From Candidatus Uhrbacteria bacterium (lineage in GTDB: Bacteria; Patescibacteriota; Patescibacteriia; UBA9934; GWF2-40-263): a stretch of DNA of 64,000 bases. Shown one piece after another: positions 7,763 to 56,188 of this stretch. The notes beneath the pieces were generated by a model. It did not search any database, had not been told where the DNA came from, and worked only from the letters and a program-made list of their open reading frames with translations. Within the stretch, counting starts at the first letter, position 1. Each line of letters begins with the position of its first letter. The position numbers were made by a program, and so were the translations under genes. The stretch covers positions 1,857-65,856 of the forward strand of contig JACPHU010000006.1 in assembly GCA_016188495.1 (NCBI GenBank). The letters are read 5' to 3'.

Positions 7763-7859
7763 CGACAAAAACCGTTGACAAAATCGTTAAAATAGTCCAT
7801 TATTTAATGTTTTGTCGTTCTTTACATCGGTTGAAAAACTTTGCAATGAGAGGTGTTCC

Positions 7860-9011
7860 ATGTCTGACGAATTGTTTGATCGCGGCCTTGTGCCCATTTC
7901 GGGCGATCCGGTCACCAATGGCCATGTTGATTTGATCGCTCGGGCTTCCAGAAAATGCAAAACATTGCTTGTCTTGGTTGCCAACAATAAGACAAAGACT
8001 GATAAATATCTCTTTTCACTTGAAGAGCGTCTGGAGATCGCTCGACGAGCTCTTTCGCATCTGCCAAATGTAGAGGTGGTTGCCAGTAGCGGGCTTCTTG
8101 TGGATGTTTTTATGGAGCAGGGATGCGACCGGGTGTTCCGAGGGATCAGGAACGAGGAAGATCGCGCGTATGAACTTCATCTTGCTTCTCTTAACAACAC
8201 CCTGTTTCCTGGGTTAGGGGAGAAGTTTGAGTTTTTGTTGGCGCCTCCGGAACTGACACATGTTTCGAGTTCCTTGGTAAAAGAACTCGTCCTTCAGAGG
8301 GTCGATGTTTCTCGCTTCGTTCCTATCTTCATTAAAGCTCTGCTTGAGGTGAGGTTGCGAGGACAGACGATGATCGGGATTACTGGTGGAATTGCCAGCG
8401 GTAAGACGTGGGTTGGAAAACAGCTTGCTTATAGGCTCGGAGGAACTTACCTCAATTTTGATGATTTGATCAGGGAGCTCTATGAGGAATCCTCTCGTGG
8501 GGCTCAAATGGTTCGCAATGAATTGGCAAAACTCTTCGGATCAGATGTGTTGAGTGGTGACGGAATTCACGTTGATCGAGACGTTCTCAAGAGACGTATT
8601 TTCACTCATTCGTCTTCCGACGAAATGATGAAAAAGGTTGTTGAACTGACGTCTCCGCATGTGATGCGGCTCTACCGACAAAAACTGACCCAAGCAAAAG
8701 GGTTTGTGATCGTCGAGTGGGCGCAGATGGCGCAGATGGAAATGAGTTATCTCGTTAACCATCAAGTCATCGTCGTTGAGGCCGCTGATCGAGAAGTGTT
8801 TCTTCAGAAACGCGGTATCGATCAGGAAGCGTTTACTCGCGTTTCTTCTCATCAATGGGGTGCTCAACGACAGGTAGAAGCACTTCAAACAGTGATTGAT
8901 CGTGACGGGTATGGCAAGGTTTTGTCATATGAAAACCACTATGATCCCGTTCAATCAGATGAGGGTTTGGCAGGACTAGTAGATGCGATTAGAGGTCTTG
9001 TTGTTTTCTAA
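7860..9011 (+). CDS. coaDE: Bifunctional phosphopantetheine adenylyltransferase / dephospho-CoA kinase (CoaD-CoaE fusion)
   Basis: The N-terminal ~165 aa is PPAT (PISGDPVTNGHVDLI, RGIRNEEDRAYELHLASLN, SSSLVKEL). The C-terminal ~215 aa is DPCK with a Walker A (MIGITGGIASGKTW). The start at ATG 7860 follows a GAGAGG RBS. The ORF track starts 48 nt earlier. Confidence 0.85.
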   Translation: MSDELFDRGLVPISGDPVTNGHVDLIARASRKCKTLLVLVANNKTKTDKYLFSLEERLEIARRALSHLPNVEVVASSGLLVDVFMEQGCDRVFRGIRNEEDRAYELHLASLNNTLFPGLGEKFEFLLAPPELTHVSSSLVKELVLQRVDVSRFVPIFIKALLEVRLRGQTMIGITGGIASGKTWVGKQLAYRLGGTYLNFDDLIRELYEESSRGAQMVRNELAKLFGSDVLSGDGIHVDRDVLKRRIFTHSSSDEMMKKVVELTSPHVMRLYRQKLTQAKGFVIVEWAQMAQMEMSYLVNHQVIVVEAADREVFLQKRGIDQEAFTRVSSHQWGAQRQVEALQTVIDRDGYGKVLSYENHYDPVQSDEGLAGLVDAIRGLVVF

Positions 9012-11456: not shown

Positions 11457-11532
11457 GCGGGTGTCGTATAGTGGCTCATTATGTCAGCCTTCCAAGCTGA
11501 AGAGGAGGGTTCGATTCCCTTCACCCGCTCCA
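11457..11532 (+). tRNA. tRNA-Gly (anticodon TCC)
   Basis: The cloverleaf folds by hand: acceptor GCGGGTG/CACCCGC, anticodon loop CTTCCAA, T-loop GGTTCGATTCC, then discriminator T and CCA. Confidence 0.85.
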
Positions 11533-11534
11533 AC

Positions 11535-11563
11535 AAAAAACTGATGAAATTCATCAGTTTTTT
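11535..11563. terminator. bidirectional intrinsic terminator
   Basis: A perfect hairpin ctgatgaa/ttcatcag is flanked by an A6 and a T6 run. It terminates tRNA-Gly (+) and the kinase gene (-). Confidence 0.8.
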
Positions 11564-11575
11564 GTTGGAGTATTT

Positions 11576-13849
11576 TTATGAGATCAATTTTTGTGTGCCT
11601 ATTTTCGCCGCCATGCCTTCAGACGGGATACTGACGACAAACGTGGATCCTTCTCCTATTTTGGAGTTGAAGCGAATAGTGCCTCCGGTATGGTTTAAGA
11701 TGGATTTGACGAGATAGAGTCCAAGGCCTGTACCATCCACATCTATTTCTTTGGCATTATCCGCTCGGAAGAGTTTTTTAAAAATATGTTCCTGTTGCAT
11801 TTTGGGAATCCCTATTCCCGTATCTGTGACGCGAATAAAAAAGTCTTTTTCGTCTTTTCGAATTTCACATTCTATTTTTCCATCGTGAGGGGTATATTTT
11901 ACAGCATTCGAGAGGAGGTTTTGGAAGATGATCATCGTGAGTTTCGGATCAACAGAGACCAAAGGGATGGTTTCATCAAACATGGTTTGTATGACCAGAT
12001 GCTTTTCTTTGATGATTGGATCGAGTTCTTGAAGAATGGTCTGTGCTATGGAATTAAGATTCGTTGGCTGCGGTTCAACCGTAAAGGTTCCTAATTCAAT
12101 TTTTGATACGTCCAGAAGAGCATTGATGAGCAAGGTCATTCGTTGGGTGCTCGCGTAGATTTCTTGGATGGTTGTTTTTTGTTCTTCTCCCAAATTTCCT
12201 TTATCACCTGCAAGAAGCATTTCCGCATTCCATTTGATAGAAGTAAGAGGTGTGCGCATTTGATGGCTGGCTAAAGAGACAAATTGCGATTTTGCGCGAT
12301 CTATCTCATCTTCCTTTGTGATATCCATACATATTCCAAACATTTTTAGAGCCTCCCTTTGTTCGTTGCGTTGAATATGTCCTATGGCCCGTATCGTGAC
12401 CGTTTCTTGGTTTCGAAGGATTCTAAATTTTATATCCATTTTTTTTTGCGGTTGTTCTATCGCGTCTTGGACTTGATGCACCAGACGATCGCGATCATCC
12501 GGATGCAGGATAGAGATCCAAGTTTGAAAAACCCCTTTCTCTCCCTTTTTTAAGTCTATGCCAAAAAGTTCTTCCAATAAATTGTCGTTTAAGAGAGTGT
12601 CTGTCAGCACATTCCATTCCCATGTCGCGATATTGGCTGACGTTGTCGCTAAAATAAAATGCTCATTGAGCTCTTCAAATTTGTTCTGCTGGTATTTGAT
12701 TTCCGTTATATCTTCTTCTGAAGCAATAAACCCGATCATATTTTGGTTTTCGTCAAAGATCGGACTATTGTGCACGATCGCGTAATAGATTTCACCGTTT
12801 TTTTTTCGATTGGTGATTTCTGTCGTGCTTGGGATGCCGCCGGTTTTCATGCGCCAAAAATTTTCATAGAATTCAACAGGCATGAGTCCGCCCCAGAGCC
12901 TGGGTGTATTGCCGATCATTTCATCTAACGTAAATCCTGTAATCTTTTCGGCCGCCTTATTGGCATAGTAGATCGTTCCATGTATGTCCGTGATCATGGT
13001 ATGGCTGCTTGAACTATCCAACGCTGTTCGAAAAATATCATTTTCTGTCATGGGCAGCGTCTTTTTTTGCGCGTCGTCGTTTTTAGTGAGAGCTTTAAAA
13101 AAATCCGCATTTTTTATGGAAGGATAATGTTCTTCAAAAACGCATTGCGAAGGATTGATGTGATGTTGCATCAGTATGCGATAGGCGTGGTCGATGAATT
13201 TTTGCGGTCCGCTTATGAGAAAGAGGGAATGGGCAAGATTATGTATCTGTGAAAGATCTGAGAATTGGAATAAACTAGTAGAGACTGATGCGGTATTTCC
13301 TTTTTGATTGAAAAGTTCTATTTCTTCTTCGTAAGGGGTCCGGTTTTTATTACGGTCGTAATGATAGAAATGGATCGGTTCAGCATAGGTTGAAAGGGCG
13401 CGCGTGCGCATGATGCATAGGAAAGGCGCCATCGCCACGCCTCCGGAAAGAAGGACGAGAGGATATTGGAATTCTTTTTTAAGTTGGAAGGAAATTCCAA
13501 ATGGACCGATAATCGTGACAGGGCTTTCTGGAGCAAGAGCAAGAAGCGTCTGTTTAAATCCACTCTCGCTTTTTCGGAAAAGAATTTGAATCGTTGTTTG
13601 TCCGATTTTAGGAGGATTGATGATAGAAAAAGCGCGACGGGATCCTTTTGGATCGGGAGCTATCAAACGAGGAAGATCCAACCACACGTATTGTCCAGCC
13701 AGATAGCTTATCGGATGTTCTAATTTGAACGTCGCTTCAAACGTATCCTCGGCCACTTCGATGCATTTTTTGAATCGGGCCGCAACATGTCTGTTGTCGT
13801 GCGTAAGCGTTATCATAAAAAGAAAATAAAAATCCATTATTGTATCCAC
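11576..13849 (-). CDS. Cytoplasmic hybrid sensor histidine kinase: N-terminal FNR-like FAD/NAD(P)-binding oxidoreductase module, two PAS domains, HisKA and HATPase_c
   Basis: FNR-like motifs are AGQYVWLDL, RRAFSIINPP and LLSGGVAMAPF. Two PAS segments follow. The H-box is SHQMRTPLTSIKWNAEMLL and the G-boxes are DTGIGIP...GTGLGLYLV. No TM segment is present. The first codon is GTG, with an in-frame ATG at 13837. Confidence 0.85.
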   Translation of the reverse strand: MDTIMDFYFLFMITLTHDNRHVAARFKKCIEVAEDTFEATFKLEHPISYLAGQYVWLDLPRLIAPDPKGSRRAFSIINPPKIGQTTIQILFRKSESGFKQTLLALAPESPVTIIGPFGISFQLKKEFQYPLVLLSGGVAMAPFLCIMRTRALSTYAEPIHFYHYDRNKNRTPYEEEIELFNQKGNTASVSTSLFQFSDLSQIHNLAHSLFLISGPQKFIDHAYRILMQHHINPSQCVFEEHYPSIKNADFFKALTKNDDAQKKTLPMTENDIFRTALDSSSSHTMITDIHGTIYYANKAAEKITGFTLDEMIGNTPRLWGGLMPVEFYENFWRMKTGGIPSTTEITNRKKNGEIYYAIVHNSPIFDENQNMIGFIASEEDITEIKYQQNKFEELNEHFILATTSANIATWEWNVLTDTLLNDNLLEELFGIDLKKGEKGVFQTWISILHPDDRDRLVHQVQDAIEQPQKKMDIKFRILRNQETVTIRAIGHIQRNEQREALKMFGICMDITKEDEIDRAKSQFVSLASHQMRTPLTSIKWNAEMLLAGDKGNLGEEQKTTIQEIYASTQRMTLLINALLDVSKIELGTFTVEPQPTNLNSIAQTILQELDPIIKEKHLVIQTMFDETIPLVSVDPKLTMIIFQNLLSNAVKYTPHDGKIECEIRKDEKDFFIRVTDTGIGIPKMQQEHIFKKLFRADNAKEIDVDGTGLGLYLVKSILNHTGGTIRFNSKIGEGSTFVVSIPSEGMAAKIGTQKLIS

Positions 13850-13882
13850 TATAGCATTTTTATTTTTAACTCATCAGTTTTT

Positions 13883-14263
13883 ATGTCTCAACATTCGCTG
13901 CTGCTCCTTATTGAAGATGATTCTTTTATTCTTCAAATTTATAAAACGAAATTAGCCAAAGAGTCGTTTCAGGTATTGGTGGCCAAAGACGGGAAGGAAG
14001 CAATGACTATTCTTAAGGATCAAACGCCTTCTTTGGTGTTGCTTGATCTTATTATGCCGAACATGGACGGATTTGAAGTGCTGCAGAGAATGAAGCAAGA
14101 TGATCGGCTCAAGCATATTCCCGTCATCGTGTTATCTAATCTTAGTCAGGAGTCTGATAAGAAACGCGTTATGGATTTAGGGGCAAAAGCATTTCTTGTG
14201 AAATCGGACACAACGCTCGCTTCCATTGTCGATTTGATTAATGAATTCACGAAACCCACCTAG
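13883..14263 (+). CDS. single-domain response regulator (CheY-like receiver, no output domain)
   Basis: Receiver motifs are present: LLLIEDD, LVLLDLIMPNMDGFEVL and the conserved Lys region VLSNLS. It is divergent from the kinase gene. The start at ATG 13883 avoids overlap with the kinase ORF. Confidence 0.85.
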   Translation: MSQHSLLLLIEDDSFILQIYKTKLAKESFQVLVAKDGKEAMTILKDQTPSLVLLDLIMPNMDGFEVLQRMKQDDRLKHIPVIVLSNLSQESDKKRVMDLGAKAFLVKSDTTLASIVDLINEFTKPT

Positions 14264-14292
14264 TTTTTTTGAAGTTTTTTGATTTTGGTCCC

Positions 14293-14328
14293 AAAAAAAC
14301 TGATGGAATGTATTCCATCAGTTTTTTT
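14293..14328 (+). terminator. intrinsic terminator
   Basis: An A7 run precedes the hairpin ctgatggaatg/cattccatcag, and a T7 run follows it. Confidence 0.8.
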
Positions 14329-14406
14329 GTTTGTCTATTTTTTGAGAATACTAGGTTCTAGAATCTAGAGTCTAGTAACTAGATTCTAGTCCCGCCTTTG
14401 GCGGGC

Positions 14407-14711: not shown

Positions 14712-16544
14712 ATGGCAAGTCGGAGGATTCGATTTAAATTGATCGCGACATTCTTTTTTATTTCTCTTTTCTCTGTTTCCATTATTGGTATTTTAGTTTT
14801 TTTTGCCGATCGATCCAGTTTGTTATCCGAAACAGAAGTCTCTTTGCAGGTTATTGCCAATACCCAATCTCAGGACATTCAACATTTTTTTTCTCAGCTT
14901 GAAACACGGGCGATCGATTTTTCTTCGGATGGATTTATCCGAGAGTCGACAAAGACTCTGACTCAGGAATCAAATGAAAAGGTAAAGGAAGAATTGGTCC
15001 AACATTTACGCAATAATAAGTTGCCTCTGGATGCTTCTCTTTTTGTTATCGAAGTGTTTGATTTAAAAGGTTCTTTGCTTGCGACGACCGGATCTTATCA
15101 GGCAGCTTCTTTTGATGTTTCCAAACAGATACTTGAAAATCTTTCTCCGGACACGGCTGTTCTTTCCCCTTATCTTACACACGAATCTCCTCGGGGTCTC
15201 CAGAAGGTTCTTGTCGCTCTGGCGCCTATTGTCGATAAAGAAACAAATCAACGATTGGGGTATATTGCCAATCATTATTTTTTAGATTCCCTTACAGACA
15301 TTTTAAGGATGAAAAAAACGAATCCTTCCTTCGATCAATTACTTGGTTGGAAAACATTGGAATCCAATCTCGTGTCTTCAGGGGATGTGTTGATTGCCGT
15401 TTCCGATCCTGAAGACGAAAATTTTTTAAACAAAACAACAGACTTGCACGTCTTCGGAACGGTCTGCGGCAACACTGCCTCAGTACGCCAGTATATCAGT
15501 CATAATGGAAAGGAAGCGACCGGTATTGCCCATTGCGTAAATGCGAAAAACTACCTCATTGTCGAAGTTGAATCTCAAGAAATTTTTACGCGTTTGTTCG
15601 AGACGGTCAGAAACATGGTTGCCGTAGCCATAGTAACCGTTGTTCTTATGACGGTTCTGTCACTTTTTCCTGTTCGTAAGATCATCTATCCGTTGGAAGA
15701 ACTCCGCGGAGCCGTAAGGTATTTCGGGGAAGGGAAGGGATTGAGGAGTTTCGTTTATGATAAAAAAGATGAAATTGGAGAATTGTTCCAATCATTCAAA
15801 CAGATGACAGAGAATATTCAGATGGTTGAACAGCGACGTCGGGATTTTATTTCCATTGTTTCGCATCAGATGCGCACGCCATTGACGAGTATTCGTCTGT
15901 ATATGGAATTGTTGAGGAATTCTTTGAAACGGCCAAAGGTCGTCCAGAAAGAATTTATGGATAGTATCGACATTTCGGTCGATCAGATGACGCATCTGAT
16001 TAGTGATTTATTAAACGTATCGCGTATTGAAGCTGGAAAACTCCGTATCCATCCAGTTCTCGTAGACCTCTCCGAGATCATTGGACAGGTTCTTGAGGAG
16101 ATCTCTCCGTTGGCGCAACAAAGTCGCTGTACGATACATGTTACTTCAAAAAATCCTCTTGCTTCTGTGGTTCTTGATCGAGATTTTTTTCATCAAATTT
16201 TGCGTAATTTAATCGTTAACGCCATCAAATATAGTCGTGAAGATGTCTGTGAAGTTTCACTATTTGTCGATGAAATAAAAGAAAATAAACGTTCTTTCTT
16301 AAGGATTCGAGTTCAAGATGCAGGAATCGGCATTAAGCGCGAAGATCAAGCTCATATTTTTGAAAAATTTTTTCGTTCGGAAACGGCGAGGAAACGGAAC
16401 ACGGAAGGAACGGGTTTGGGGTTGTATGTGGCGAAAATGATCCTGGATCAGACAGGAGGTTTCATTTCATTTAAATCGGAGGAGGGAATCGGAACGGTGT
16501 TTACAGTCCTGATTCCAAAGACCGGCATGTCTTCTCAAAAATAG
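14712..16544 (+). CDS. membrane sensor histidine kinase (two TM helices, extracytoplasmic sensor domain, HAMP, HisKA, HATPase_c)
   Basis: TM1 is IATFFFISLFSVSIIGILVFF and TM2 is VAVAIVTVVLMTVLSLF. The H-box is SHQMRTPLTSIRLYMELL. The ATP-lid is DAGIGIK...GTGLGLYVA. Confidence 0.9.
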   Translation: MASRRIRFKLIATFFFISLFSVSIIGILVFFADRSSLLSETEVSLQVIANTQSQDIQHFFSQLETRAIDFSSDGFIRESTKTLTQESNEKVKEELVQHLRNNKLPLDASLFVIEVFDLKGSLLATTGSYQAASFDVSKQILENLSPDTAVLSPYLTHESPRGLQKVLVALAPIVDKETNQRLGYIANHYFLDSLTDILRMKKTNPSFDQLLGWKTLESNLVSSGDVLIAVSDPEDENFLNKTTDLHVFGTVCGNTASVRQYISHNGKEATGIAHCVNAKNYLIVEVESQEIFTRLFETVRNMVAVAIVTVVLMTVLSLFPVRKIIYPLEELRGAVRYFGEGKGLRSFVYDKKDEIGELFQSFKQMTENIQMVEQRRRDFISIVSHQMRTPLTSIRLYMELLRNSLKRPKVVQKEFMDSIDISVDQMTHLISDLLNVSRIEAGKLRIHPVLVDLSEIIGQVLEEISPLAQQSRCTIHVTSKNPLASVVLDRDFFHQILRNLIVNAIKYSREDVCEVSLFVDEIKENKRSFLRIRVQDAGIGIKREDQAHIFEKFFRSETARKRNTEGTGLGLYVAKMILDQTGGFISFKSEEGIGTVFTVLIPKTGMSSQK

Positions 16545-16622
16545 GACTTTCTCACTTGGTGCATAGCTTTGCCTGCCTACCGGCAGGTAGGCAGGCGCTC
16601 TGCATCCAATTGAGAAAGTCCT
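16543..16622. promoter_or_regulatory. nested palindrome between the kinase and regulator genes (17-bp outer stem plus GC-rich inner hairpin)
   Basis: The outer arms are aggactttctcacttgg and ccaattgagaaagtcct (1 mismatch). The inner hairpin is gcctgcctacc ggc aggtaggcaggc. It overlaps the kinase stop codon. Confidence 0.5.
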
Positions 16623-16640
16623 AAAGAATAAAATTTTTTT

Positions 16641-17036
16641 ATGAAACAGCAACGTCTTTTACTCGTGGAAGATGAAAAGTTGATCGCTCGCGCGTATCAG
16701 CTCGCTTTGGAAAAAGAAGGATACCTCGTAGATCTTGTCTATGACGGCCAACAGGCTCTTTCGGCCATGGATACATGCACCTATGATCTGATTCTTTTGG
16801 ATCTCATTCTTCCTCACATCGACGGATTCGAGCTGATGCAGCGAAAGAATACGCAAGGAGCCTGTAAGAACACACCAATCATCGTTCTTTCAAATCTCGG
16901 ACAAGAAACGGATATTGCCAAAGCGAAAGAGCTTGGTGCTGTTAATTATTTGGTAAAAGCAGATCATTCATTGAATGATGTTCTTCGGATCGTGAAGCGT
17001 ACGCTAGAAAAACATCAAGACCGTGGAAACGAATGA
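16641..17036 (+). CDS. single-domain response regulator (CheY-like receiver)
   Basis: Receiver motifs are LLLVEDEKLIARAY, ILLDLILPHIDGFELM and IIVLSNLGQETD. Its stop overlaps the pilB start (ATGA). Confidence 0.85.
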   Translation: MKQQRLLLVEDEKLIARAYQLALEKEGYLVDLVYDGQQALSAMDTCTYDLILLDLILPHIDGFELMQRKNTQGACKNTPIIVLSNLGQETDIAKAKELGAVNYLVKADHSLNDVLRIVKRTLEKHQDRGNE

Positions 17037-18742
17037 ATGCATCTATGACACTCACTTACCAAGCATTACAAGAGATTTTTGTGGATTCAGGAGCTGTTTC
17101 CCAAGAACAGTTCAATACATTACAAGCCACGAAAGAGGCGAAGGAATTGGGTTTAGAGAGAGTTCTTGTTTCTCGCGGATTTTTATCAGAAAAGGAAGTG
17201 GGACAGCTGATGAGTTTTTGGTATCGCGTGCCCTTTGTCGAACTTTCGAAAAAAGACATTCGTCCTCAAGACGTTGTGCTTTTGCCTGAAGCGTTTGCTC
17301 GCGCGCATCATGTGCTGGTGATCAGCCAGCAACCGGAACGAGTGATCGTGGCAAGTTCCACGCCGAAAGATACCGTATTACGCTCATCCTTAGAGAAATA
17401 TTTTCGTACAGAGGTTCAATTCCAGTATGCGACAGAACACGATCTGCGCCAGCATTTTTTCTTGTACCAAGAAGATCCCGATATCCGTATCCAATCCATT
17501 TTAAAAAGAAGTCCTGTCCCCCAAGAGCAGACGGATACGCGGGTGATCGATCTGATCGATGCGATTATCGATATGGGTTATCAACGCGGCGTTTCAGATA
17601 TCCATCTGGAACCAGAAGAAGCTTATCTGGTCATTCGGTATCGTCAGGACGGACTTCTTCATGATGTTGCCCGCATTCCAGAAGCCTTTCACGAGCGGAT
17701 CATGGCTCGATTAAAAGTCCTTTCGCGCTTGGCAACCGATGAGCATCGCAAAGCGCAGGACGGAAAGATTTCCCATAAAACCCCTTGGGGAAGCGATGTG
17801 GAAATTCGCTTGTCTATTCTTCCTACTACACAAAAGGAGAAGGCCGTTATGCGTCTGCTCTCTGAGCAGGCACAGGCGTATTCGCTGGTTGAGCTAGGTT
17901 TGCAAACGGGTGATTATCAGAAAATAGCAGATGCAATGGAGAAACCATGGGGAATGATTCTGGCAACCGGTCCCACGGGATGCGGAAAGACCACCACGCT
18001 TTATGCCATGCTTCAGGTGCTCAATCGACGGGAAGTCAATATCACCACCATCGAAGATCCGGTGGAGGTCGATCTGGAGGGAATCAATCAGATTCAAGTG
18101 GATGAAAAGACCGGACTCACCTTTGCAAAAGGATTGCGTTCTATCGTGCGGCAGGATCCGGATATCATCATGGTGGGAGAGATCCGGGACAGCGAAACGG
18201 CTAGTATCGCGATCAACGCGGCGATGACAGGACATCTGGTTCTTTCGACCCTCCATACCAATGACGCGGCAACGGCGTTCGTACGACTATTAGACATGGG
18301 AATCGAACCGTTCCTTCTCTCTTCGACCGTCAATGTTGTGGTCGCTCAGCGTTTGGTACGCAAAGTCTGTATGAATTGCATCGAATCCGTGACGTTTAAT
18401 GGGACCCAGAAAAAACTATTAGAAAAGACTCCCCAAATCCAGCCTCTGCTTCTTCGGCTTGCCCAGAAGGCAACCGTACGCGGGTTGAGGGTGTTTCACG
18501 GAAAAGGATGTAAGGTATGCCACGGGAGCGGATATAAGGGACGCATAGGGGTTTTTGAAACATTGGTTGTGACAGATGAAATCCGTGAAGCGGTGATGAC
18601 GAAAAAACACGCAGACGAAATTGAGCAAATAGCCATCAGAGAAGGGATGGATTCCATGCTTACGGATGGTTTGCGCAAAGCCTTATTAGGACAAACAACG
18701 CTTGAGGAGGTTTTACGTGTGGTTTATGAAGAAGTTTTATGA
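17033..18742 (+). CDS. pilB: type IV pilus assembly ATPase PilB/GspE family
   Basis: Walker A is GPTGCGKTTTLYAML. An Asp box, Walker B (IIMVGEIRD), a His box and a C-terminal tetracysteine motif (CMNC...CKVCHGSG) are present. Confidence 0.9.
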   Translation: MNASMTLTYQALQEIFVDSGAVSQEQFNTLQATKEAKELGLERVLVSRGFLSEKEVGQLMSFWYRVPFVELSKKDIRPQDVVLLPEAFARAHHVLVISQQPERVIVASSTPKDTVLRSSLEKYFRTEVQFQYATEHDLRQHFFLYQEDPDIRIQSILKRSPVPQEQTDTRVIDLIDAIIDMGYQRGVSDIHLEPEEAYLVIRYRQDGLLHDVARIPEAFHERIMARLKVLSRLATDEHRKAQDGKISHKTPWGSDVEIRLSILPTTQKEKAVMRLLSEQAQAYSLVELGLQTGDYQKIADAMEKPWGMILATGPTGCGKTTTLYAMLQVLNRREVNITTIEDPVEVDLEGINQIQVDEKTGLTFAKGLRSIVRQDPDIIMVGEIRDSETASIAINAAMTGHLVLSTLHTNDAATAFVRLLDMGIEPFLLSSTVNVVVAQRLVRKVCMNCIESVTFNGTQKKLLEKTPQIQPLLLRLAQKATVRGLRVFHGKGCKVCHGSGYKGRIGVFETLVVTDEIREAVMTKKHADEIEQIAIREGMDSMLTDGLRKALLGQTTLEEVLRVVYEEVL

Positions 18743-19825
18743 AAAAACATGATCAACCTTGGTATAAACGCCAGATCGATTTGTTTCCGGTGCCGCAGAC
18801 GCAGATCGTTTCCTTGGTAAAAAATTTTTCTATTATGCTCGAGGCGGGAATTGCTGTGCCGGAAGCGATTGAGGTTCTCGTTGACCAGTCGTCTGGTACG
18901 CTCAAGAGCGTCATGAAAACGGTTTCTGTGCGGCTTTCGTCAGGAGAGCGTCTTTGGGAGGCATTTTCTCATGCGCAACGAGTTTTTTCTCCGATTTTTT
19001 TAAGCGCGGTACAGGCAGGAGAGGCTTCTGGAACGCTCGCGGGAAATCTGTCTCATGTTGCCGCGCAGATGGAACAAGACTCGTCTCTTAGGCGTTCTAT
19101 TGAAGGGGCTCTTTTGTATCCCGGCGTCGTGGTGTCCGCCACGCTTATTCTCGGATTATTATTGGCAACATTCGTTTTGCCCGAACTCGCTTCCGTTTTC
19201 GCTTCGTTGAATATGCCCCTTCCTTGGAGCACAAAAACGCTTCTGTGGCTTGCCGGCATGTTTGCCCAAGACGGCTATTGGCTGACTCCGCTGCTTATTT
19301 TTTCTCTCTTCGGTTTGGTTGTTTTATGGCGCCAGCGCTTTTTGTCGCCTGTTACAGATGTTATCATTTTGCGTTTACCGGGATTAGGTCTTTTTTTTTC
19401 ACAATATCGCTCGGGCGCATTTTTGCCGAGGCATGGGCACGTTGCTTGAATCCGGAATTCCACTACAAGAAGCATTGCAGATTCAGGTCCAATCGATAGA
19501 GAATCATGCCTATCAACGGTCAGTGCTATCGATGGTTGACCAGGTTGCCTCCGGAGAAGGATTCGCGCAAGCGCTCGCCCGATATCCCCGTCTTTTTCCT
19601 CTTTTGATCCAGCGGATGGTTTTTGTCGGAGAACATTCAGGCAGACTCGACCAGCTCTTCTTTTTTCTCGCCCGATTTTATGAAGAAGATGTATCGTTGC
19701 GGGCAAAAAATCTTTCTTCGGTTATTGAGCCTCTCTTGCTAATGGTGATCGGTCTTGGGGTCGCGTTTGTCGCTTTTTCTATTTTTACGCCTATTTATTC
19801 CATTACCAGCGGTCTGGGCTTATGA
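18739..19825 (+). CDS. pilC: type IV pilus platform protein PilC/GspF, interrupted by a +1 frameshift inside a T9 homopolymer (19391-19399)
   Basis: The ORF-track pieces 18739-19449 and 19433-19825 are consecutive GspF domains. The upstream frame reads LPGLGLFF. The downstream frame, read back from 19433, gives FFFHNIARAHFCRGMGTLLESGIPLQEALQI. Joined, they give a canonical PilC junction. Confidence 0.8.
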
Positions 19826-20259
19826 GAGCTCAAGGAGGATTTACCATGATCGAACTTCTGATGAGTCTGGCGATCGCAGGCATTGTTTTGGCAGTTTCGC
19901 CTCTGACGTTTGGTTCTTTTCAGGAACAACACCAGATAGAGTTCGCTGTGCAGGCAAGCGCACAGGCATTGAGAAGAGCTCAGATACAGGCTCAAGCAGT
20001 GGCAAACGACCAAACATGGGGAGTCTTTTTTCAAAATGGAAGTGTGACGATTTTTCAGGGTTCAAGCTATGCAGCGCGCAACAGCGCTTTTGATGAGGAT
20101 CAACAGATTGCGCCGGAGGTGACCCTGGGAGGTGTTGCGGAGGTAGTCTACAGTAAACTGACCGGCGAACCTCAAACAACAGGAGTCATCACATTTGAAA
20201 CCCTGCATGAAACACGAACGTTGACGCTCCTTGAAAAAGGGGCTTTATCCTATGACTAA
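19822..20259 (+). CDS. prepilin-type minor pilin/pseudopilin (N-terminal methylation motif)
   Basis: The leader plus hydrophobic helix reads GGFTMIELLMSLAIAGIVLAV, with Gly-1, Phe+1 and Glu+5. Confidence 0.75.
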   Translation: MRAQGGFTMIELLMSLAIAGIVLAVSPLTFGSFQEQHQIEFAVQASAQALRRAQIQAQAVANDQTWGVFFQNGSVTIFQGSSYAARNSAFDEDQQIAPEVTLGGVAEVVYSKLTGEPQTTGVITFETLHETRTLTLLEKGALSYD

Positions 20260-21649
20260 TCAAGGATTTTCTCTTGTGGAGGTGATAGTGGCGATCGCCT
20301 TGCTAGGCATTGTTGCTCTTGGATTTGTCCGGTGGTTGGTTGTCGCCCAGGAGAACGTGGTTTTTTCCGGACAACGCACTCGCGCACTGTTTCTTGCAGA
20401 AGAAGGTTTAGAGGCCGTGCGGAATATGCGAGATGACGATTTTTCTTTGTTGACAAACGGAACTCACGGGTTGGCTGTAAGCGGTTGGCAATGGATTTTT
20501 TCCGGATCGTCCGATACAACAGATCTTTTTACGCGAGAAGTGACGGTTTTCCCTGTGGATGCGGATCGTAAAGAAGTGATGTCACAAATTACTTGGAATC
20601 AAACACCTTATCGTTTAGCTTCATTAGAACTCGTGACGTATCTCACCAACTGGCAGGCGGGCAATGCTCAGCCTATTCCGATTACGCCGGACGCAACGTT
20701 GAATCTTGCCGGCCCTGCGAATGGGACGGAAGTCGCTCTTTATACGGATGGAGGAACGACTTATATTTTGCTCGGACGCGTTTCTTCTAGCGAAAAGGAG
20801 TTTTATGTGATCAATGTGTCAGATCCTTCCAATCCGGTTGTTACAGCCGAACTTGAAATTGGAAGCGATGTGAATGGTGTGGCGGTTGTCGGGTCTTATG
20901 CGTTTCTTGCCACGTCAAGCAATACGGCTGAACTTCAGGTCGTCAATCTTACGAATCCTGCGAGCCCCACCTTTGCAGGAAGTTCGAATTTAGCTGGAAA
21001 CGCAGATGCAATCACTGTTGTCGGACAAGGATCAAATCTTTATGTAGGGCGCGCGTCCAATAGCAGCGGGCCAGAAATTTTTTCCCTTTCGATTGCCACA
21101 CCATCGTCTCCGAGCGTGCTTTCGAGTTTGGAAGTGGGGGATAGTGTTTGGAAAATGGTTTTGGATCAAAGCGCAAGTTTTGTGTACGCGGCAACAGGAA
21201 GCACGACAGCAGAATTACTTATTGTGAATACAACGACACCATCCTCGATTGTTCAAGAAGGTGCATTAAATATTTCTGGAACGACAGACGCAACCGCGAT
21301 CGCCGTTTTTTCAACATACACAGCACTTGGAATGGACGATGGAAATTTTTATGTGGTTGATACGTCCACACCCGCCTCTCCCTTCCTTGCAAGTAGCGCG
21401 CTTGATATTGGAATCAAAATAAACGATATGGCCATGGGGGTGGACGATGACTATCTTTTTGCTGGAAGCGGAACCGTTAATACGGAAGTGGCGGTCATCA
21501 ATGTCAGCGATCCCTCATCGCCGACCATCTATTTTTCTGTTGATCTTGCAGGTAATGAAGCGAAAGGATTGATTTGGGATCAGACATTGAATCGAGTTTT
21601 CGGAGGCGGAACGGGGAATACGGAAGAATTTTTCGTGCTTATTCCTTGA
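20231..21649 (+). CDS. prepilin-type minor pilin fused to a beta-propeller made of LVIVD repeats
   Basis: The N-terminus is NQG|FSLVEVIVAIALLGIV. Five repeats of the LVIVD type follow: YVINVSDPSNP, LQVVNLTNPASP, LLIVNTTTPSS, FYVVDTSTPASP and VAVINVSDPSSP. There is a TTG start at 20231 and an alternative ATG at 20252. Confidence 0.75.
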   Translation: MKKGLYPMTNQGFSLVEVIVAIALLGIVALGFVRWLVVAQENVVFSGQRTRALFLAEEGLEAVRNMRDDDFSLLTNGTHGLAVSGWQWIFSGSSDTTDLFTREVTVFPVDADRKEVMSQITWNQTPYRLASLELVTYLTNWQAGNAQPIPITPDATLNLAGPANGTEVALYTDGGTTYILLGRVSSSEKEFYVINVSDPSNPVVTAELEIGSDVNGVAVVGSYAFLATSSNTAELQVVNLTNPASPTFAGSSNLAGNADAITVVGQGSNLYVGRASNSSGPEIFSLSIATPSSPSVLSSLEVGDSVWKMVLDQSASFVYAATGSTTAELLIVNTTTPSSIVQEGALNISGTTDATAIAVFSTYTALGMDDGNFYVVDTSTPASPFLASSALDIGIKINDMAMGVDDDYLFAGSGTVNTEVAVINVSDPSSPTIYFSVDLAGNEAKGLIWDQTLNRVFGGGTGNTEEFFVLIP

Positions 21650-27412: not shown

Positions 27413-28910
<1,498 letters not shown>

Positions 28911-37770: not shown

Positions 37771-40044
37771 TTATCTTCTCGCCGTTGCTCCGCTTGTCAC
37801 GTCTTCCAAGTGAATAGACAGAAGGTTTGAGATCCCTTCTTCACCCATGGTCACTCCGTACAGAACATCGGCTTGTTCCATAGTCGCACGGTTGTGAGTA
37901 ATGATGATGAACTGGGAGTTCTTGGAGAGTTCTTGAAGGATCGAGGCAAAACGGATGGTGTTGGATTCGTCCAGTGCCGCGTCTACTTCATCCAAGAGTA
38001 CAAATGGAGAGGGATTTACGGCCATGATCGCGCTGATGAGGGCGATAGAGGTCAACGCACGTTCTCCTCCAGAGAGAAGATTGAGTGCTTTGAGTTTTTT
38101 GCCGGGAGGCGTGGCTTGAATTTCTACACCGATGATTGGATCTTGATGTTTTTCAAGTTTTTCTTCTATGAGTTCCTCTTTTCCTCGAGCTTCCTCACCC
38201 GTGTCTGAGAACGCACGCTCTGCGGAAACTTCCGTTTCTGGTTCAGGGAGAAGTTCTTCGCGCGTAAGTTTTACCAAAGCGCAAGATCCTCCTCCGAAAA
38301 GCATTTTGAAATACCGTTCGAATTCTTTGTTGATTTTTTGAAAGATCGTCTTAGATTGCTTATCGATTTGTTCGTCTAATTCTTCGATTACCTGTTCGGT
38401 CGCTTTGATTCCTTTTTTTAAATCGTCGATCTGTCCATCTAAGAATTCGTAGCGTTCACGGGTCTCTTCATATTCTTTCATGATTTCCGGATCGATTCCC
38501 CCGATGATTTCAAGTTTATAACGCAGTCGTTGGATTTCGCTGTAGACATCGGCGGGTTGGGGCGAAGCCTGTTCCTGGGTTGGACGGTTGGATCGAATCA
38601 CGACCGCGCGTTCTTTCAGAAATTCATTCATTTCTCGGATGAGTCCTTGCTGGCGTTCCTCAAATCGCGCTAGGTTGATCTGCATGTCATTACGGCGATT
38701 TTCAAATAAATGGATTTGTCGTTGTTTTTCGCGCAACGCCCGTTGGGTTTCAATGAATTCCGTGCGTTCGGTTTTTTCCTGCTTGGCGTAAGCGTCTATC
38801 TGTGTTTCCAAGACTTTTTGTTCCTGTTCAGCGACTCGTTCTTGTTCTTTGAGATCTTTCAATTTTTGTACAAGGATAGGATCCGGTTTGATGTCTTCTG
38901 GATTGGGACGTTGAAGATTTTTAGAAAGCTTACCGGAGCGTTCCAAGAGGGCGTCGATTTTTTCAAGAATTTCAGAGAGTTCTTTTTTGTCTTTAAGTTG
39001 GCGTAATTCTTCTACGAGCCAATCGACTTCTTGCACGATTTTTAACAGCGGCAATGGAGCCCAATTGGATTGCGCCCGCACACGTGCGAGTTCGATGTTT
39101 TTTTCGGTTTGGAATTGTTCATTGCGGAGGTTGCTGTGCTTTTGCTGCGCTGCGCGATAGGCTTGCTGCAGCTTGATCAACCCCTCGTCTGGCGCCTGAT
39201 CGACCTGTTCGAGCTTATCGACGGCAGCTTCCAGCTCCGTGAGTGCTTTTCTTTCCAGTTTGATCGCATCGTTGCTTTGTTCAAACTGATGTTTTGCCTG
39301 TTCTAATTGATCGATTAATGTCCACCATTGGTCTCCATAATAGAGAGTTTCCAGTGTATGAAGTTGTGTTTGTACTTCTTCCCGCTGCTCAAGCCGGCTT
39401 ACTTGTCTTTTGAGCGAACGCAATCGCGGTTCGATTTCGCGCAATAACATCTCGACGTCGATTAAGTTTTCATGCGTGCGTTTGAGTTTTAAAATCGCTT
39501 CATGCCGTTTGATCTGAAAGGGCTTAACGCCTGTGGCATCATCAAAAAAAGCTTTGCGTTCCTCAGGGGTGGAGACCAAAATGTGATCAATCATGCCTTG
39601 ACCTACGACCGAATACGAACGTTGACCGACATTGGCTTGAGCTAAAAGCAAATGGATATCCTGTAGACGCGCGTGCGTTTCGTTGAGAAGATATTCAGAC
39701 GTTCCATCTCGAAACAAGCGGCGAGTAATCGTGACATGGGGATATTCAATCGGCATGGACGAGTCTTCGTTATTGAGACAGATGCTGACTTCTGCAAAAC
39801 CGGCTCGTCCTTTTCCTTCAGAACCCGAAAAGATGACATCTTCAGAATTTTTTCCACGCAGCAATTTGAGACTCTGTTCCCCCAAAACCCACCGGATGGC
39901 ATCAGCAAGATTGGATTTTCCCGACCCGTTGGGTCCCACAATCGCGGTAATGGGTGTTCGATCCTCGGTGGGTGGCAGGAAAGAAAGAGCTGTTTTTTTT
40001 GCAAAGGTTTTAAACCCCTGGAGTTCGATTTTCGTCAGATGCAT
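37771..40044 (-). CDS. smc: SMC-family ATPase, short form (757 aa) without a recognizable hinge domain
   Basis: The N-terminal Walker A is ITAIVGPNGSGKSNLADAIRWVLGEQS. The C-terminal signature is LSGGERALTSIALISAI with Walker B VLLDEVDAALD. The ~400-aa middle is pure coiled coil with no Gly-rich hinge and no CxxC hook. Confidence 0.8.
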   Translation of the reverse strand: MHLTKIELQGFKTFAKKTALSFLPPTEDRTPITAIVGPNGSGKSNLADAIRWVLGEQSLKLLRGKNSEDVIFSGSEGKGRAGFAEVSICLNNEDSSMPIEYPHVTITRRLFRDGTSEYLLNETHARLQDIHLLLAQANVGQRSYSVVGQGMIDHILVSTPEERKAFFDDATGVKPFQIKRHEAILKLKRTHENLIDVEMLLREIEPRLRSLKRQVSRLEQREEVQTQLHTLETLYYGDQWWTLIDQLEQAKHQFEQSNDAIKLERKALTELEAAVDKLEQVDQAPDEGLIKLQQAYRAAQQKHSNLRNEQFQTEKNIELARVRAQSNWAPLPLLKIVQEVDWLVEELRQLKDKKELSEILEKIDALLERSGKLSKNLQRPNPEDIKPDPILVQKLKDLKEQERVAEQEQKVLETQIDAYAKQEKTERTEFIETQRALREKQRQIHLFENRRNDMQINLARFEERQQGLIREMNEFLKERAVVIRSNRPTQEQASPQPADVYSEIQRLRYKLEIIGGIDPEIMKEYEETRERYEFLDGQIDDLKKGIKATEQVIEELDEQIDKQSKTIFQKINKEFERYFKMLFGGGSCALVKLTREELLPEPETEVSAERAFSDTGEEARGKEELIEEKLEKHQDPIIGVEIQATPPGKKLKALNLLSGGERALTSIALISAIMAVNPSPFVLLDEVDAALDESNTIRFASILQELSKNSQFIIITHNRATMEQADVLYGVTMGEEGISNLLSIHLEDVTSGATARR

Positions 40045-51367: not shown

Positions 51368-51530
51368 GCTCTCTTCGTTCATTGGCAAAGTCTGGCTTGC
51401 CACGCCTTAAATACTCTTACATCAAAGTATTTAGAGCGCGGTAAGTCAGTAATAAAAAAAGTAGTTGATAGTCACCGGCATGGTTGTTGGTGGCTCAGAA
51501 ATCCAATCCCGAAAGGGAAGGAGAAAGCAA

Positions 51531-52613: not shown

Positions 52614-52727
52614 TAGATCGATCAACTCCGTCGGTTCCGACCATGACGGCGCAAGGGTAGCACTCAGTGCCCGGTGTCTGGTTGGACCTTCGGCCATTAC
52701 TCTATTACCCCTACGAAGGGAGTCCCC

Positions 52728-52752
52728 TGGACTCCCTTTTTCACTAGGCGAT
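52728..52752 (+). terminator. intrinsic terminator after island gene A
   Basis: The hairpin gggagtcc/ggactccc is followed by a T6 run. Confidence 0.7.
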
Positions 52753-52856
52753 TTATTTTCAAAATGAATCGTGTAGCGAAAGCATGTAGGCTTTCAATCA
52801 GTATTTTAGATCGGTCCTTTTGGATCGATTGTGTTCACAACAAAGGAGAGAATTCA

Positions 52857-54014: not shown

Positions 54015-54164
54015 TTTCCGACGTAACACGGTCAAGATCGATTCCCACGGAGTCGGCCCTTGACCCTTTTCTTGGGAAGAGAAGAGGAGTAATCCTTTGG
54101 CTCTTCTGAAGAGAAGAAATTTGCTTTCGACCTTTACAAATGAAGTTGAGATAAGGAGGTTTAG

Positions 54165-55004: not shown

Positions 55005-55040
55005 AAATAGACGAAACATGAACGAAAAGGGAGAGAAAAA

Positions 55041-56180: not shown

Positions 56181-56188
56181 GGTAACAA

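What the first reader, a model, noticed from the sequence alone, without database searches (positions are those of the whole stretch)
11576..13849. Soluble histidine kinase with an N-terminal ferredoxin-NADP-reductase-like flavin module
The first ~230 aa carry the FNR-family beta-barrel and Rossmann motifs (AGQYVWLDL, RRAFSIINPP as the R-x-Y/F-S FAD-binding motif, LLSGGVAMAPF as the NAD(P)-binding GG-x-x-x-P). Two PAS domains and HisKA/HATPase follow. There are no TM segments.

A kinase whose input is an oxidoreductase-type flavin domain, rather than a PAS-bound flavin, would sense redox state through NAD(P)H or an electron partner. This is an uncommon architecture.
Basis: partly seen in the sequence, partly recalled or inferred. 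Interest (0 to 1): 0.6.

Follow-up and report, generated by a model that had tools for sequence, protein, structure and literature searches.

The report
Flavin-reductase-fused sensor kinase of CPR bacteria
A soluble histidine kinase from a candidate-phyla-radiation bacterium (Uhrbacteria) really does start with a ferredoxin-NADP-reductase-type flavin/NAD(P)H module; it belongs to a large, uncharacterised family found mainly in these tiny bacteria, which probably reports cellular redox state to small response regulators that are often encoded next to pilus genes.

Summary
ORF 11576-13849 (-) encodes a soluble kinase with the order FNR-like module, PAS, PAS, HisKA, HATPase_c. The likely start is the ATG at 13837 (753 aa).

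On the window protein alone, Pfam barely detects the FNR module, and NCBI names the protein only "PAS domain S-box protein". Other evidence is decisive:
- The N-terminus matches the T4moF reductase in the PDB at E=9.5e-9, and the subfamily profile reaches 1.4e-24.
- The AlphaFold core has pLDDT above 90.
- All 50 top Foldseek hits are FNR-superfamily reductases.
- The flavin (R-x-F-S) and NAD(P) (GGxGxxP) motifs are nearly invariant across 154 relatives. The window protein has Ala at one motif Gly.

The architecture is not rare. An exhaustive search found 1,592 clusters at E<=1e-30, and 82 of the 96 long top hits carry a kinase core. Close relatives in genome bins carry mostly Patescibacteria labels.

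The context is conserved. Receiver-only response regulators are adjacent at most loci, type IV pilus genes lie within about 8 kb at 5 of 18 loci, and split forms encode the FNR module and the kinase as separate adjacent genes.

I found no paper describing this input type. Sensing of NAD(P)H or flavin redox state is the best inference, but it is untested.

The parts
11576..13837 (-). FNR-PAS-PAS-HisKA-HATPase_c sensor histidine kinase gene. It is 753 aa from ATG 13837; the maximal ORF starts at GTG 13849 and NCBI's call starts at Met12.
13484..13792 (-). FAD-binding beta-barrel of the FNR-like module (residues ~20-122). It contains GQY (51-54), the subfamily insertion PRLIAPDPKG (60-69), RRAFS (71-75) and SESGFKQT (94-101).
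   Evidence: Pfam FAD_binding_6; PDB alignment; AF2 strands with pLDDT >90; conservation
13121..13471 (-). Compact Rossmann-type NAD(P)-binding domain (residues ~127-243). It contains GGVAMAP (136-142), SGP (213-215) and the C-terminal F-E-E-H-Y-P (238-243).
13034..13120 (-). Poorly conserved, variable-length tether between the FNR module and PAS1 (residues 244-272).
   Evidence: low pLDDT in both models; linker length 28-45 residues across 28 orthologues
12701..13033 (-). PAS1, a generic S-box type with motif GNTPRLWGG at residues 313-321. It has no LOV Cys.
   Evidence: Pfam PAS/PAS_9; invariant columns
12332..12577 (-). PAS2 (PAS_3).
12092..12295 (-). HisKA (DHp) domain with the H-box SHQMRTPL. 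The phospho-acceptor is His529.
11621..11947 (-). HATPase_c catalytic domain with the N box (643-654), G1 DTGIGI (676-681) and G2 GTGLGL (706-711).
13883..14263 (+). Divergently transcribed receiver-only response regulator (126 aa), the likely cognate partner.
   Evidence: Pfam Response_reg at 7.9e-25; the same divergent pairing on independent contigs; receiver-only RRs adjacent in most related loci
11527..11571 (.). 20-bp-stem hairpin between the kinase stop codon and the convergent tRNA-Gly. It is a probable bidirectional terminator.
13862..13891 (-). Promoter-like site upstream of the kinase gene. This is a consensus match only, and such matches are no more frequent here than in shuffled sequence.
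14712..17036 (+). Second two-component pair: a TM-HAMP-HisKA-HATPase kinase (14712-16544) and a receiver-only RR (16641-17036).
17033..21649 (+). Type IV pilus genes: PilB-like ATPase with MshEN domain (17033-18742), PilC-like T2SSF (18739-19449) and a pilin-like protein with an N_methyl motif (20231-21649). They are a candidate downstream target, by context only.
   Evidence: the same linkage in L006, L008, L013 and L060

Best explanation
The gene encodes a cytoplasmic sensor histidine kinase whose input is a complete FNR-type oxidoreductase module, consisting of a flavin-binding beta-barrel and a compact NAD(P)H-binding Rossmann domain.

Shown:
- The fold, the conserved flavin and NAD(P) motifs, an intact kinase core, and an adjacent receiver-only response regulator.
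- The same architecture in many CPR bacteria, including split versions in which the FNR protein and the PAS-kinase are neighbouring genes.

Inferred:
- The module binds FAD or FMN and NAD(P)H.
- Its occupancy or flavin redox state is set by the NAD(P)H/NAD(P)+ ratio and by whatever re-oxidises the flavin (O2 or another acceptor).
- That state is passed to PAS1 and PAS2, probably by domain contact. The C-terminal aromatic cap (F-E-x-x-Y-P), which in FNR enzymes must move for nicotinamide to reach the flavin, sits exactly where the tether to PAS1 begins.
- This changes autophosphorylation of His529 and phosphotransfer to single-domain, CheY-like regulators.
- In a subset of lineages, including this one, the output is plausibly type IV pilus function.
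For: FNR identity:
- phmmer against the PDB: T4moF 9.5e-9 and GcoB 6.6e-7. Subfamily profile: T4moF 1.4e-24, BenC 1.4e-23, plus NqrF, SpNOX and Hmp.
- AF2 core pLDDT above 90. Foldseek top 50 are all FNR superfamily, with SpNOX DH at E=1.5e-16 and TM 0.80.

Selection on cofactor sites across 154 modules:
- R72 in 152, F74 in 141 and S75 in 153.
- G137 in 154, G139 in 145 and P142 in 136.
- GPxG G118 in 154, E239 in 132 and Y242 in 120.

Kinase competence: HisKA and HATPase_c are strong hits, and the H, N, G1 and G2 boxes are present.

Family:
- 1,592 clusters at E<=1e-30, and 82 of 96 long top hits have a kinase core.
- All ten related genome ORFs scanned combine an FNR-type domain with PAS, HisKA and HATPase hits.

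Separate-gene forms: L014 has FNR 231 aa followed by TM-PAS-HK 541 aa. L016 has FNR-PAS 402 aa followed by MASE6-PAS-HK 728 aa.

Context:
- Receiver-only RRs are adjacent in most loci.
- PilB/PilC lie within about 8 kb in the window, L006, L008, L013 and L060.
- PAS1 lacks the LOV-type flavin residues, so it is not the obvious cofactor site.
Against: - No biochemical evidence exists for flavin or NAD(P)H binding.
- The window protein is a divergent member. NAD_binding_1 is below the Pfam cutoff. Gly139 of GGxGxxP is Ala, which occurs in only 8 of 154 members. The position matching the BenC flavin-capping Phe is His. CGP is SGP, and the GxxS/T motif is shifted (SGFKQT).
- The FNR-PAS1 tether is unconserved, variable in length and modelled with low confidence. 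No rigid coupling path is visible.
- The pilus linkage is present in only 5 of 18 loci, and those loci are not phylogenetically independent. L061 has neither an RR nor pilus genes nearby.
- Many relatives are FNR-PAS proteins with no kinase, so the module is not tied to kinase signalling.
Confidence: 0.55

Rival explanations
1. The FNR module is a regulated enzymatic output, not the input. The PAS domains sense an unknown signal and control both the kinase and an NAD(P)H:acceptor reductase activity (flavin, ferric or O2 reduction).
For: Many family members are FNR-PAS or FNR-PAS-PAS proteins with no kinase: 34 of 154 modules, and L016's complete 402-aa ORF, which ends at a stop codon. Stand-alone ~230-aa versions exist (L014, L017, P0004), so the module can act as an ordinary enzyme. 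A PAS protein that modulates a flavin reductase has been described in Lactobacillus johnsonii (PMC4500961, title and abstract seen).
Against: N-terminal domains of histidine kinases are normally inputs. Short metagenome contigs truncate many of the 'kinase-less' proteins (P0001 and P0002 break off at or within PAS1). No electron-acceptor domain or partner gene is conserved next to it.
Confidence: 0.17
2. The arrangement works like flavohaemoglobin. The FNR module uses NAD(P)H to keep a redox cofactor bound in PAS1 or PAS2 (haem or flavin) reduced, and that PAS cofactor is the true O2/NO/redox sensor.
For: The best curated-family match of the window module is NO-inducible flavohaemoprotein (50.6 bits, far below the cutoff of 432), and Hmp is the second Foldseek hit. 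PAS1 is very strongly conserved in the family, with H279, W315, Y324, W328, N343 and K346 invariant.
Against: The PAS1 conservation follows the generic S-box pattern. The LOV Cys position is Pro, the flavin-contacting Gln position is Glu, and one flavin-contacting Asn position is Ala. I did not see a FixL/DOS-type proximal-His arrangement in the sequence, but this was a reading by eye and not a test. No confident FNR-PAS interface is modelled.
Confidence: 0.1
3. The module is a degenerate pseudo-enzyme. It keeps the FNR fold only as a scaffold, a dimerisation domain or a simple nucleotide-binding domain, with no redox chemistry.
For: The window protein scores at or below the Pfam thresholds. 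It deviates at Gly139 (Ala), CGP (SGP) and GxxS/T, and it has a ~20-residue deletion in the NAD domain relative to the 2Fe-2S reductases.
Against: The residues that contact the flavin and the pyridine nucleotide are the most conserved positions of the module across 154 sequences at a median identity of about 33%. That is hard to explain without cofactor binding. The compact NAD domain still models as a complete five-stranded Rossmann sheet, similar to SpNOX DH and Fre.
Confidence: 0.12
4. The fusion is an assembly or gene-calling artefact that joins an oxidoreductase gene to a PAS kinase gene.
For: Split versions exist (L014, L016), and in L001-L004 a frameshift at an A7 run breaks the ORF.
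Against: The identical 753-aa ORF occurs on two independent Logan assemblies and on a 70.6-kb NCBI contig. Dozens of 31-43%-identical full-length orthologues have the same uninterrupted architecture.
Confidence: 0.01

Closest known systems
FNR-superfamily reductase modules of the BenC / T4moF / Fre / SpNOX-DH / flavohaemoglobin type (Pfam FAD_binding_6 + NAD_binding_1)
   Same: The two-domain fold is the same. It shares the GQY strand, R-x-F-S flavin motif, GPxG hinge, GGxGxxP loop, xGP strand and C-terminal F-E-x-aromatic cap. Its compact size (~230 aa) resembles Fre and the SpNOX dehydrogenase domain.
   Different: - It has no 2Fe-2S, haem or TM partner domain. It is fused N-terminally to PAS-PAS-kinase instead.
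- It has a conserved P-x-L-x-x-P-D-P-K-G insertion before R-x-F-S and a conserved S-E-S-G-F-K-Q-T helix start.
- No curated NCBIfam model comes near its cutoff.
PAS-flavin redox sensors (NifL, MmoS, Aer) and LOV histidine kinases (from established knowledge)
   Same: In both, a flavin is proposed as the redox-sensitive cofactor of a cytoplasmic signalling protein, and PAS domains relay to the transmitter.
   Different: In those proteins the flavin sits inside a PAS fold and has no NAD(P)H site of its own. Here the putative flavin sits in an oxidoreductase module with its own NAD(P)H site, so it could re-reduce itself. PAS1 here lacks the LOV/NifL flavin residues.
Rex-type NADH/NAD+ sensing repressors, and the KinA PAS-A domain that has been studied in connection with NAD+ (Rex and the NAD+ link are from established knowledge; the KinA paper PMC5552956 appeared)
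   Same: The concept is the same: the pyridine-nucleotide pool is read directly by a regulator.
   Different: The folds differ (Rex is a winged helix plus a classical Rossmann domain) and no flavin is involved. Rex acts on DNA directly, not through phosphotransfer.
HoxJ with the regulatory hydrogenase HoxBC (from established knowledge)
   Same: A redox enzyme acts as the sensory input of a PAS-containing histidine kinase.
   Different: The enzyme there is a separate [NiFe] hydrogenase complex, not a fused FNR module. L014's two-gene form (FNR protein plus TM-PAS-HK) is the closer analogue.

Membership tests
FNR superfamily (FAD/NAD(P)-binding two-domain reductase module) | Six-stranded antiparallel beta-barrel followed by a Rossmann-like alpha/beta domain | tested here: met
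   AF2 core pLDDT above 90 with the expected strand and helix order. The Foldseek top 50 are all FNR-family, E 1.5e-16 to 7.5e-13.
FNR superfamily (FAD/NAD(P)-binding two-domain reductase module) | Significant sequence similarity to family models or members | tested here: met
   PDB phmmer 9.5e-9 and profile 1.4e-24. Pfam FAD_binding_6 scores 21.4 bits against a cutoff of 21.1, but only on the isolated N-terminus. NAD_binding_1 scores 15.1 bits against a cutoff of 22, which is not met for the window protein but is met in relatives.
FNR superfamily (FAD/NAD(P)-binding two-domain reductase module) | R-x-Y/F-S/T flavin-binding motif | tested here: met
   R72-A-F74-S75 is present and aligns to RAYS of T4moF. 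R is conserved in 152, F in 141 and S in 153 of 154 members.
FNR superfamily (FAD/NAD(P)-binding two-domain reductase module) | G-x-x-S/T phosphate-binding helix start | tested here: inconclusive
   The sequence is S96-G97-F-K-Q-T101. The canonical Ser/Thr position is Gln and a Thr follows one residue later. S96, G97 and K99 are strongly conserved in the subfamily.
FNR superfamily (FAD/NAD(P)-binding two-domain reductase module) | G-G-x-G-x-x-P pyridine-nucleotide loop | tested here: inconclusive
   The window has G136-G137-V-A139-M-A-P142. The family has Gly at position 139 in 145 of 154 members and Ala in 8.
FNR superfamily (FAD/NAD(P)-binding two-domain reductase module) | C-G-P strand and C-terminal aromatic flavin cap | tested here: inconclusive
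   The window has S-G-P instead of C-G-P, with G214 in 152 and P215 in 120 members. The C-terminal F238-E239-E-H-Y242-P aligns with FDRF of T4moF and FEKF of BenC. The position of the BenC Phe is His here, and the adjacent Y242 is conserved in 120 of 154 members.
FNR superfamily (FAD/NAD(P)-binding two-domain reductase module) | Bound FAD/FMN and NAD(P)H-dependent flavin reduction | not testable with these tools
   This needs purified protein, with UV-vis spectra and an NAD(P)H oxidation assay.
HisKA-type (class I) sensor histidine kinase | DHp domain with H-box His, and a CA domain with N, G1 and G2 boxes | tested here: met
   HisKA 1.1e-17 and HATPase_c 6.8e-26. SHQMRTPL (His529), the N box at 643-654, DTGIGI and GTGLGL are present. 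Two DHp helices and the CA fold are modelled.
HisKA-type (class I) sensor histidine kinase | Cognate response regulator | tested here: met
   A receiver-only RR is divergently adjacent, and RRs are adjacent in most related loci. Pairing is inferred from adjacency only.
LOV / PAS-flavin sensors (NifL, MmoS, Aer type) | Flavin-binding residues inside the PAS fold (the LOV NCRFLQ Cys, Asn/Asn/Gln contacts) | tested here: not met
   PAS1 has GNTPRLWGG, with Pro at the Cys position. The FWN Asn is Ala and the Gln position is an invariant Glu. This was a comparison by eye with LOV consensus motifs recalled from knowledge, not a structural test.

The most novel reading that the evidence does not exclude
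This would be a self-resetting flavin redox sensor, a new class of kinase input. The fused FNR module is reduced by NAD(P)H and re-oxidised by O2 or another acceptor. Displacement of its C-terminal aromatic cap drives the PAS-kinase, so that CPR episymbionts link their own, or their host-derived, redox or oxygen state to CheY-like regulators that control type IV pili (attachment, motility or DNA uptake).
Probability: 0.2. Interest if true: 0.75.

Novelty: new variant of a known kind. Interest (0 to 1): 0.55.

Why it matters
CPR/Patescibacteria have very few two-component systems (PMC10805038), and almost nothing is known about what those systems sense. A widespread kinase family found mainly in these bacteria, whose input is a whole NAD(P)H:flavin oxidoreductase module, would be a direct readout of metabolic redox state or oxygen in organisms with minimal metabolism.

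Its recurrent linkage to CheY-like regulators and type IV pilus genes points to control of attachment or motility. These traits are reported to vary with oxygen regime and lifestyle in groundwater Patescibacteria (PMC9938205).

For signalling biology, it would add an enzyme-fold flavin input with its own reductant site. This is distinct from PAS-flavin sensors such as NifL, Aer and LOV.

It is also a useful annotation lesson. The deposited name, "PAS domain S-box protein", and the precomputed Pfam list both miss the module in this protein.

Tried and rejected
- **Rarity.** The word-indexed homologue search with the N-terminus gave only 10 hits and suggested extreme rarity. The exhaustive HMM search showed that was a sensitivity artefact.
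- **First genome scan.** The scan with the 8-sequence alignment failed because it had no conserved stretch. It worked with a closer 5-sequence alignment.
- **AFDB50 fold search.** The library was unavailable.
- **LOV-like PAS1.** I considered PAS1 as a flavin site and rejected it on motif grounds.
- **Non-CPR fusions.** I asked whether the Gemmatimonadales and other non-CPR hits are signalling fusions. They are ordinary C-terminal FNR modules without PAS or HK domains.
- **Assembly chimera.** Rejected.
- **Paralogue.** The other 757-aa ORF, at 37771-40044, turned out to be an SMC protein.
- **Literature.** Nine full-text searches found no description of an FNR-type kinase input (one search was a look-up inside one paper). 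The library is incomplete, so this is absence of evidence only.
- **DHODH gene upstream in L001-L004.** I looked at it because PyrK is FNR-like. It is a single lineage and is not conserved elsewhere.
Full report
**Observation**

The window contains a 757-codon ORF on the minus strand, running from GTG 13849 to the stop codon that ends at 11576. The true start is probably a little downstream.
- The public gene call uses ATG 13837 and gives 753 aa. The same protein is found on two independent Logan assemblies.
- The closest homologue, P0001, starts at the equivalent Met.
- NCBI's entry starts at Met12 and gives 746 aa.

None of this affects the domains. Residue numbers below follow the 757-codon ORF unless stated.

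Pfam finds PAS (273-383), PAS_3 (425-506), HisKA (519-586) and HATPase_c (635-743) with strong scores. The H box (SHQMRTPL, His529), N box, G1 (DTGIGI) and G2 (GTGLGL) are all present. A Kyte-Doolittle scan finds a single hydrophobic 19-mer at residues 129-149. That is the beta1 strand and glycine loop of the Rossmann domain, so the protein is soluble.

**Is the N-terminus really FNR-like?**

On the window protein alone, Pfam is marginal. FAD_binding_6 scores 21.4 bits against a gathering score of 21.1, and only when the N-terminus is scanned on its own. NAD_binding_1 scores 15.1 bits against 22. The precomputed Pfam list for the public copy of the protein omits both domains.

Stronger tests settle the question.
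- **Sequence.** phmmer against PDB sequences gives the T4moF reductase at 9.5e-9 over residues 29-233 and the GcoB P450 reductase at 6.6e-7. A profile of eight subfamily members gives T4moF 1.4e-24, BenC 1.4e-23, then NqrF, GcoB, SpNOX, flavohaemoglobins, MmoC and PDR. The alignments run to the C-terminal F-D/E-x-F cap of those enzymes.
- **Structure.** An AlphaFold2 model of the module has pLDDT above 90 through the core. It shows the expected beta-barrel followed by a five-stranded alpha/beta domain.
- **Fold search.** All 50 best Foldseek matches in the PDB are FNR-superfamily reductases. The best is the SpNOX dehydrogenase domain at E=1.5e-16 with a target TM-score of 0.80.

**Are the cofactor sites maintained?**

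I aligned 154 modules from the exhaustive search, whose median pairwise identity is about 33%. The most conserved positions are the ones that define flavin and pyridine-nucleotide binding in this superfamily.

| Feature | Conservation (of 154) |
|---|---|
| G52-Q53-Y54 | 147 / 153 / 147 |
| R72-x-F74-S75 | 152 / 141 / 153 |
| R92 | 148 |
| S96-G97-x-K99 | 147 / 124 / 145 |
| G115-P116-x-G118 | 140 / 150 / 154 |
| G136-G137-x-G139-x-x-P142 | 145 / 154 / 145 / 136 |
| G214-P215 | 152 / 120 |
| E239 and Y242 | 132 and 120 |

Two features mark the subfamily. One is a conserved insertion (P-x-L-x-x-P-D66-P-K-G69) before R-x-F-S. The other is a deletion of about 20 residues in the NAD domain relative to the 2Fe-2S reductases.

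The window protein is one of the more divergent members.
- It has Ala139 where 145 of 154 members have Gly.
- It has SGP in place of CGP.
- It has His at the position of the BenC capping Phe, next to the conserved Y242.
- Its GxxS/T motif is shifted by one residue.

No curated NCBIfam model comes near its cutoff. The best is flavohaemoprotein at 50.6 bits against 432. This is therefore an unnamed subfamily of the superfamily.

**How common is it, and where does it occur?**

The first, word-indexed search returned only 10 relatives. That was a sensitivity artefact. The exhaustive profile search of 1.84 billion representatives gives 1,592 clusters at E<=1e-30. This is well above the score that classical enzymes such as BenC or T4moF would reach.

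Among the 156 proteins held after that search (mostly its top 150), 96 are at least 500 aa long, and 82 of those carry a kinase core. The remainder are FNR-PAS(-PAS) proteins, FNR-PAS-GAF, stand-alone ~230-aa modules and a few other arrangements. Short metagenome contigs inflate the non-kinase classes.

In GTDB species representatives, the close relatives come mostly from MAGs labelled Patescibacteria, Saccharibacteria, Yanofskybacteria or Paceibacterota, and four are labelled Gammaproteobacteria. All ten long ORFs I scanned combine an FNR-type domain with PAS, HisKA and HATPase hits, and four of them have a multi-TM (MASE6-like) block inserted after the FNR module. Weaker hits in Gemmatimonadales and other phyla are ordinary C-terminal FNR modules without signalling domains.

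The window protein itself is deposited as "PAS domain S-box protein [Candidatus Uhrbacteria bacterium]". Uhrbacteria belong to the Parcubacteria group of the Patescibacteria. About 60 full-length orthologues at 31-43% identity carry similarly generic names.

**Context**

The kinase gene is divergent from a 126-aa receiver-only response regulator (13883-14263). It ends at a 20-bp hairpin shared with a convergent tRNA-Gly. Downstream of the RR lie a tRNA-Pro, a second kinase (TM-HAMP-HisKA-HATPase), a second receiver-only RR, then PilB (T2SSE with an MshEN domain), PilC and a pilin-like gene.

Across 18 loci examined:
- Receiver-only RRs (one to four of them) are adjacent in most loci.
- PilB/PilC lie within about 8 kb in five: the window, L006, L008, L013 and L060.
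- In L060 the order is RR, PilB, PilC, pilins, FNR-HK, all on one strand.

For genomes of about 1 Mb, this pilus linkage is more than a random 16-kb neighbourhood should show. That is my estimate and not a formal test, and the loci are not phylogenetically independent. The linkage is also not universal: L061 has neither an RR nor pilus genes nearby.

Split forms give independent evidence that the FNR module and the PAS-kinase work together.
- L014 encodes a 231-aa FNR protein that ends at ...FEQFYPNPAS*. A TM-PAS-kinase gene starts just after the stop codon.
- L016 encodes FNR-PAS (402 aa) followed by MASE6-PAS-HisKA-HATPase (728 aa).
- The split seen in L001-L004 lies in an A7 run and looks like a frameshift.

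**Mechanism**

Shown:
- An intact FNR fold with conserved cofactor motifs.
- Two generic S-box PAS domains.
- A catalytically complete HisKA kinase.
- A neighbouring single-domain RR.

Inferred: the module binds FAD or FMN and NAD(P)H, and its nucleotide occupancy or flavin redox state modulates the kinase.

One structural detail makes this attractive. In FNR-family enzymes the C-terminal aromatic residue caps the flavin and must move for the nicotinamide to stack on it (established knowledge; the SpNOX F397 variants among the hits concern this residue). In this protein that cap (F238-E-E-H-Y242-P243) is the last ordered element before the tether to PAS1.

Against a simple mechanical model, the tether is unconserved. 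It spans 28-45 residues between the conserved Pro of the YP cap and the conserved His in PAS1 and is modelled with pLDDT 45-65. Any coupling would therefore need a domain-domain contact that I could not assess, because no PAE or dimer model was available.

PAS1 is not a LOV/NifL-type flavin site. The Cys position is Pro, the Gln position is an invariant Glu, and one Asn position is Ala.

The rivals are listed separately with their probabilities. They are the module as a PAS-regulated enzymatic output, a flavohaemoglobin-like reductase that serves a PAS-bound cofactor, and a degenerate scaffold.

**Comparison with known systems and novelty**

The protein works most like the flavin-based cytoplasmic redox sensors (NifL, MmoS, Aer) or like pyridine-nucleotide sensors such as Rex. 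It is not a member of those families. Its putative flavin sits in an oxidoreductase fold that has its own NAD(P)H site.

It passes the tests for fold and sequence membership of the FNR superfamily and of HisKA-type kinases. Several cofactor-motif features of the FNR family are inconclusive for the window protein itself.

Nine full-text searches found no paper describing an FNR-type input to a histidine kinase. The library is incomplete, so this is not proof of absence. In many relatives Pfam recognises both halves, so the architecture is visible in databases but has not been discussed.

I rate it a new variant of a known kind. It is a real, widespread and uncharacterised family found mainly in CPR bacteria, which are reported to have the fewest two-component systems (PMC10805038) and to respond transcriptionally to oxygen regime (PMC9938205).

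My interest score is 0.55. The finding is solid and testable. However, new input domains on kinases are common, and the sensing function remains an inference.

Noticed in passing
window 11527-11571 and 14292-14329: Two long hairpins share the core AAACTGATG...CATCAGTTT (2 matches, 0 expected in shuffles). They bracket the divergent kinase/RR pair, one after the kinase stop codon (shared with tRNA-Gly) and one after the RR. They are probably a reused bidirectional terminator motif.
   Followed up: partly
window ~51400-56200: A GC-rich island (GC 0.50-0.58 against about 0.44 elsewhere) holds four consecutive plus-strand ORFs (51465-52613, 52674-54014, 54165-55004, 55041-56180) with no Pfam match. 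It may be foreign or mobile DNA. It is flanked by an M50 peptidase gene and an adenylosuccinate synthetase gene.
   Followed up: partly
window 27415-28910 (-): There is a complete 16S rRNA gene, but no 23S or 5S match anywhere in the 64-kb window, so the rRNA genes appear to be unlinked.
   Followed up: no
window 14712-21649 (+): A second two-component pair (TM-HAMP kinase plus receiver-only RR) sits directly upstream of PilB (with a c-di-GMP-type MshEN domain), PilC and a pilin-like protein carrying LVIVD/beta-propeller repeats.
   Followed up: partly
L001-L004 (P0003 locus), e.g. L001 5001-7249: In four assemblies from one project, the FNR-PAS-kinase ORF is broken inside PAS_3 at an A7 homopolymer, giving 438-aa and 315-aa ORFs. 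A dihydroorotate dehydrogenase gene and a Zip transporter gene lie directly upstream. Whether this is a frameshift error, a pseudogene or slippage is undecided.
   Followed up: partly
L009, L011, L013, L015 (ORFs of 935-962 aa); L016 7184-9370: Longer relatives insert a block of 4-6 TM helices (weak to clear MASE6 match) between the FNR module and the PAS domains. This yields a membrane-anchored version in which the flavin module is presumably still cytoplasmic.
   Followed up: partly
L006, L008, L016, L018 (record titles): MAGs labelled 'uncultured Gammaproteobacteria' carry this otherwise CPR-typical kinase. L006 also has a PilB very similar to the window's (2e-142). The taxonomic labels of these bins may be unreliable.
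   Followed up: no
window 7812-9011 (+): By eye, this 399-aa ORF looks like a fusion of phosphopantetheine adenylyltransferase (CoaD-like N-terminus) and dephospho-CoA kinase (GITGGIASGKT P-loop). It was not tested with any tool.
   Followed up: no
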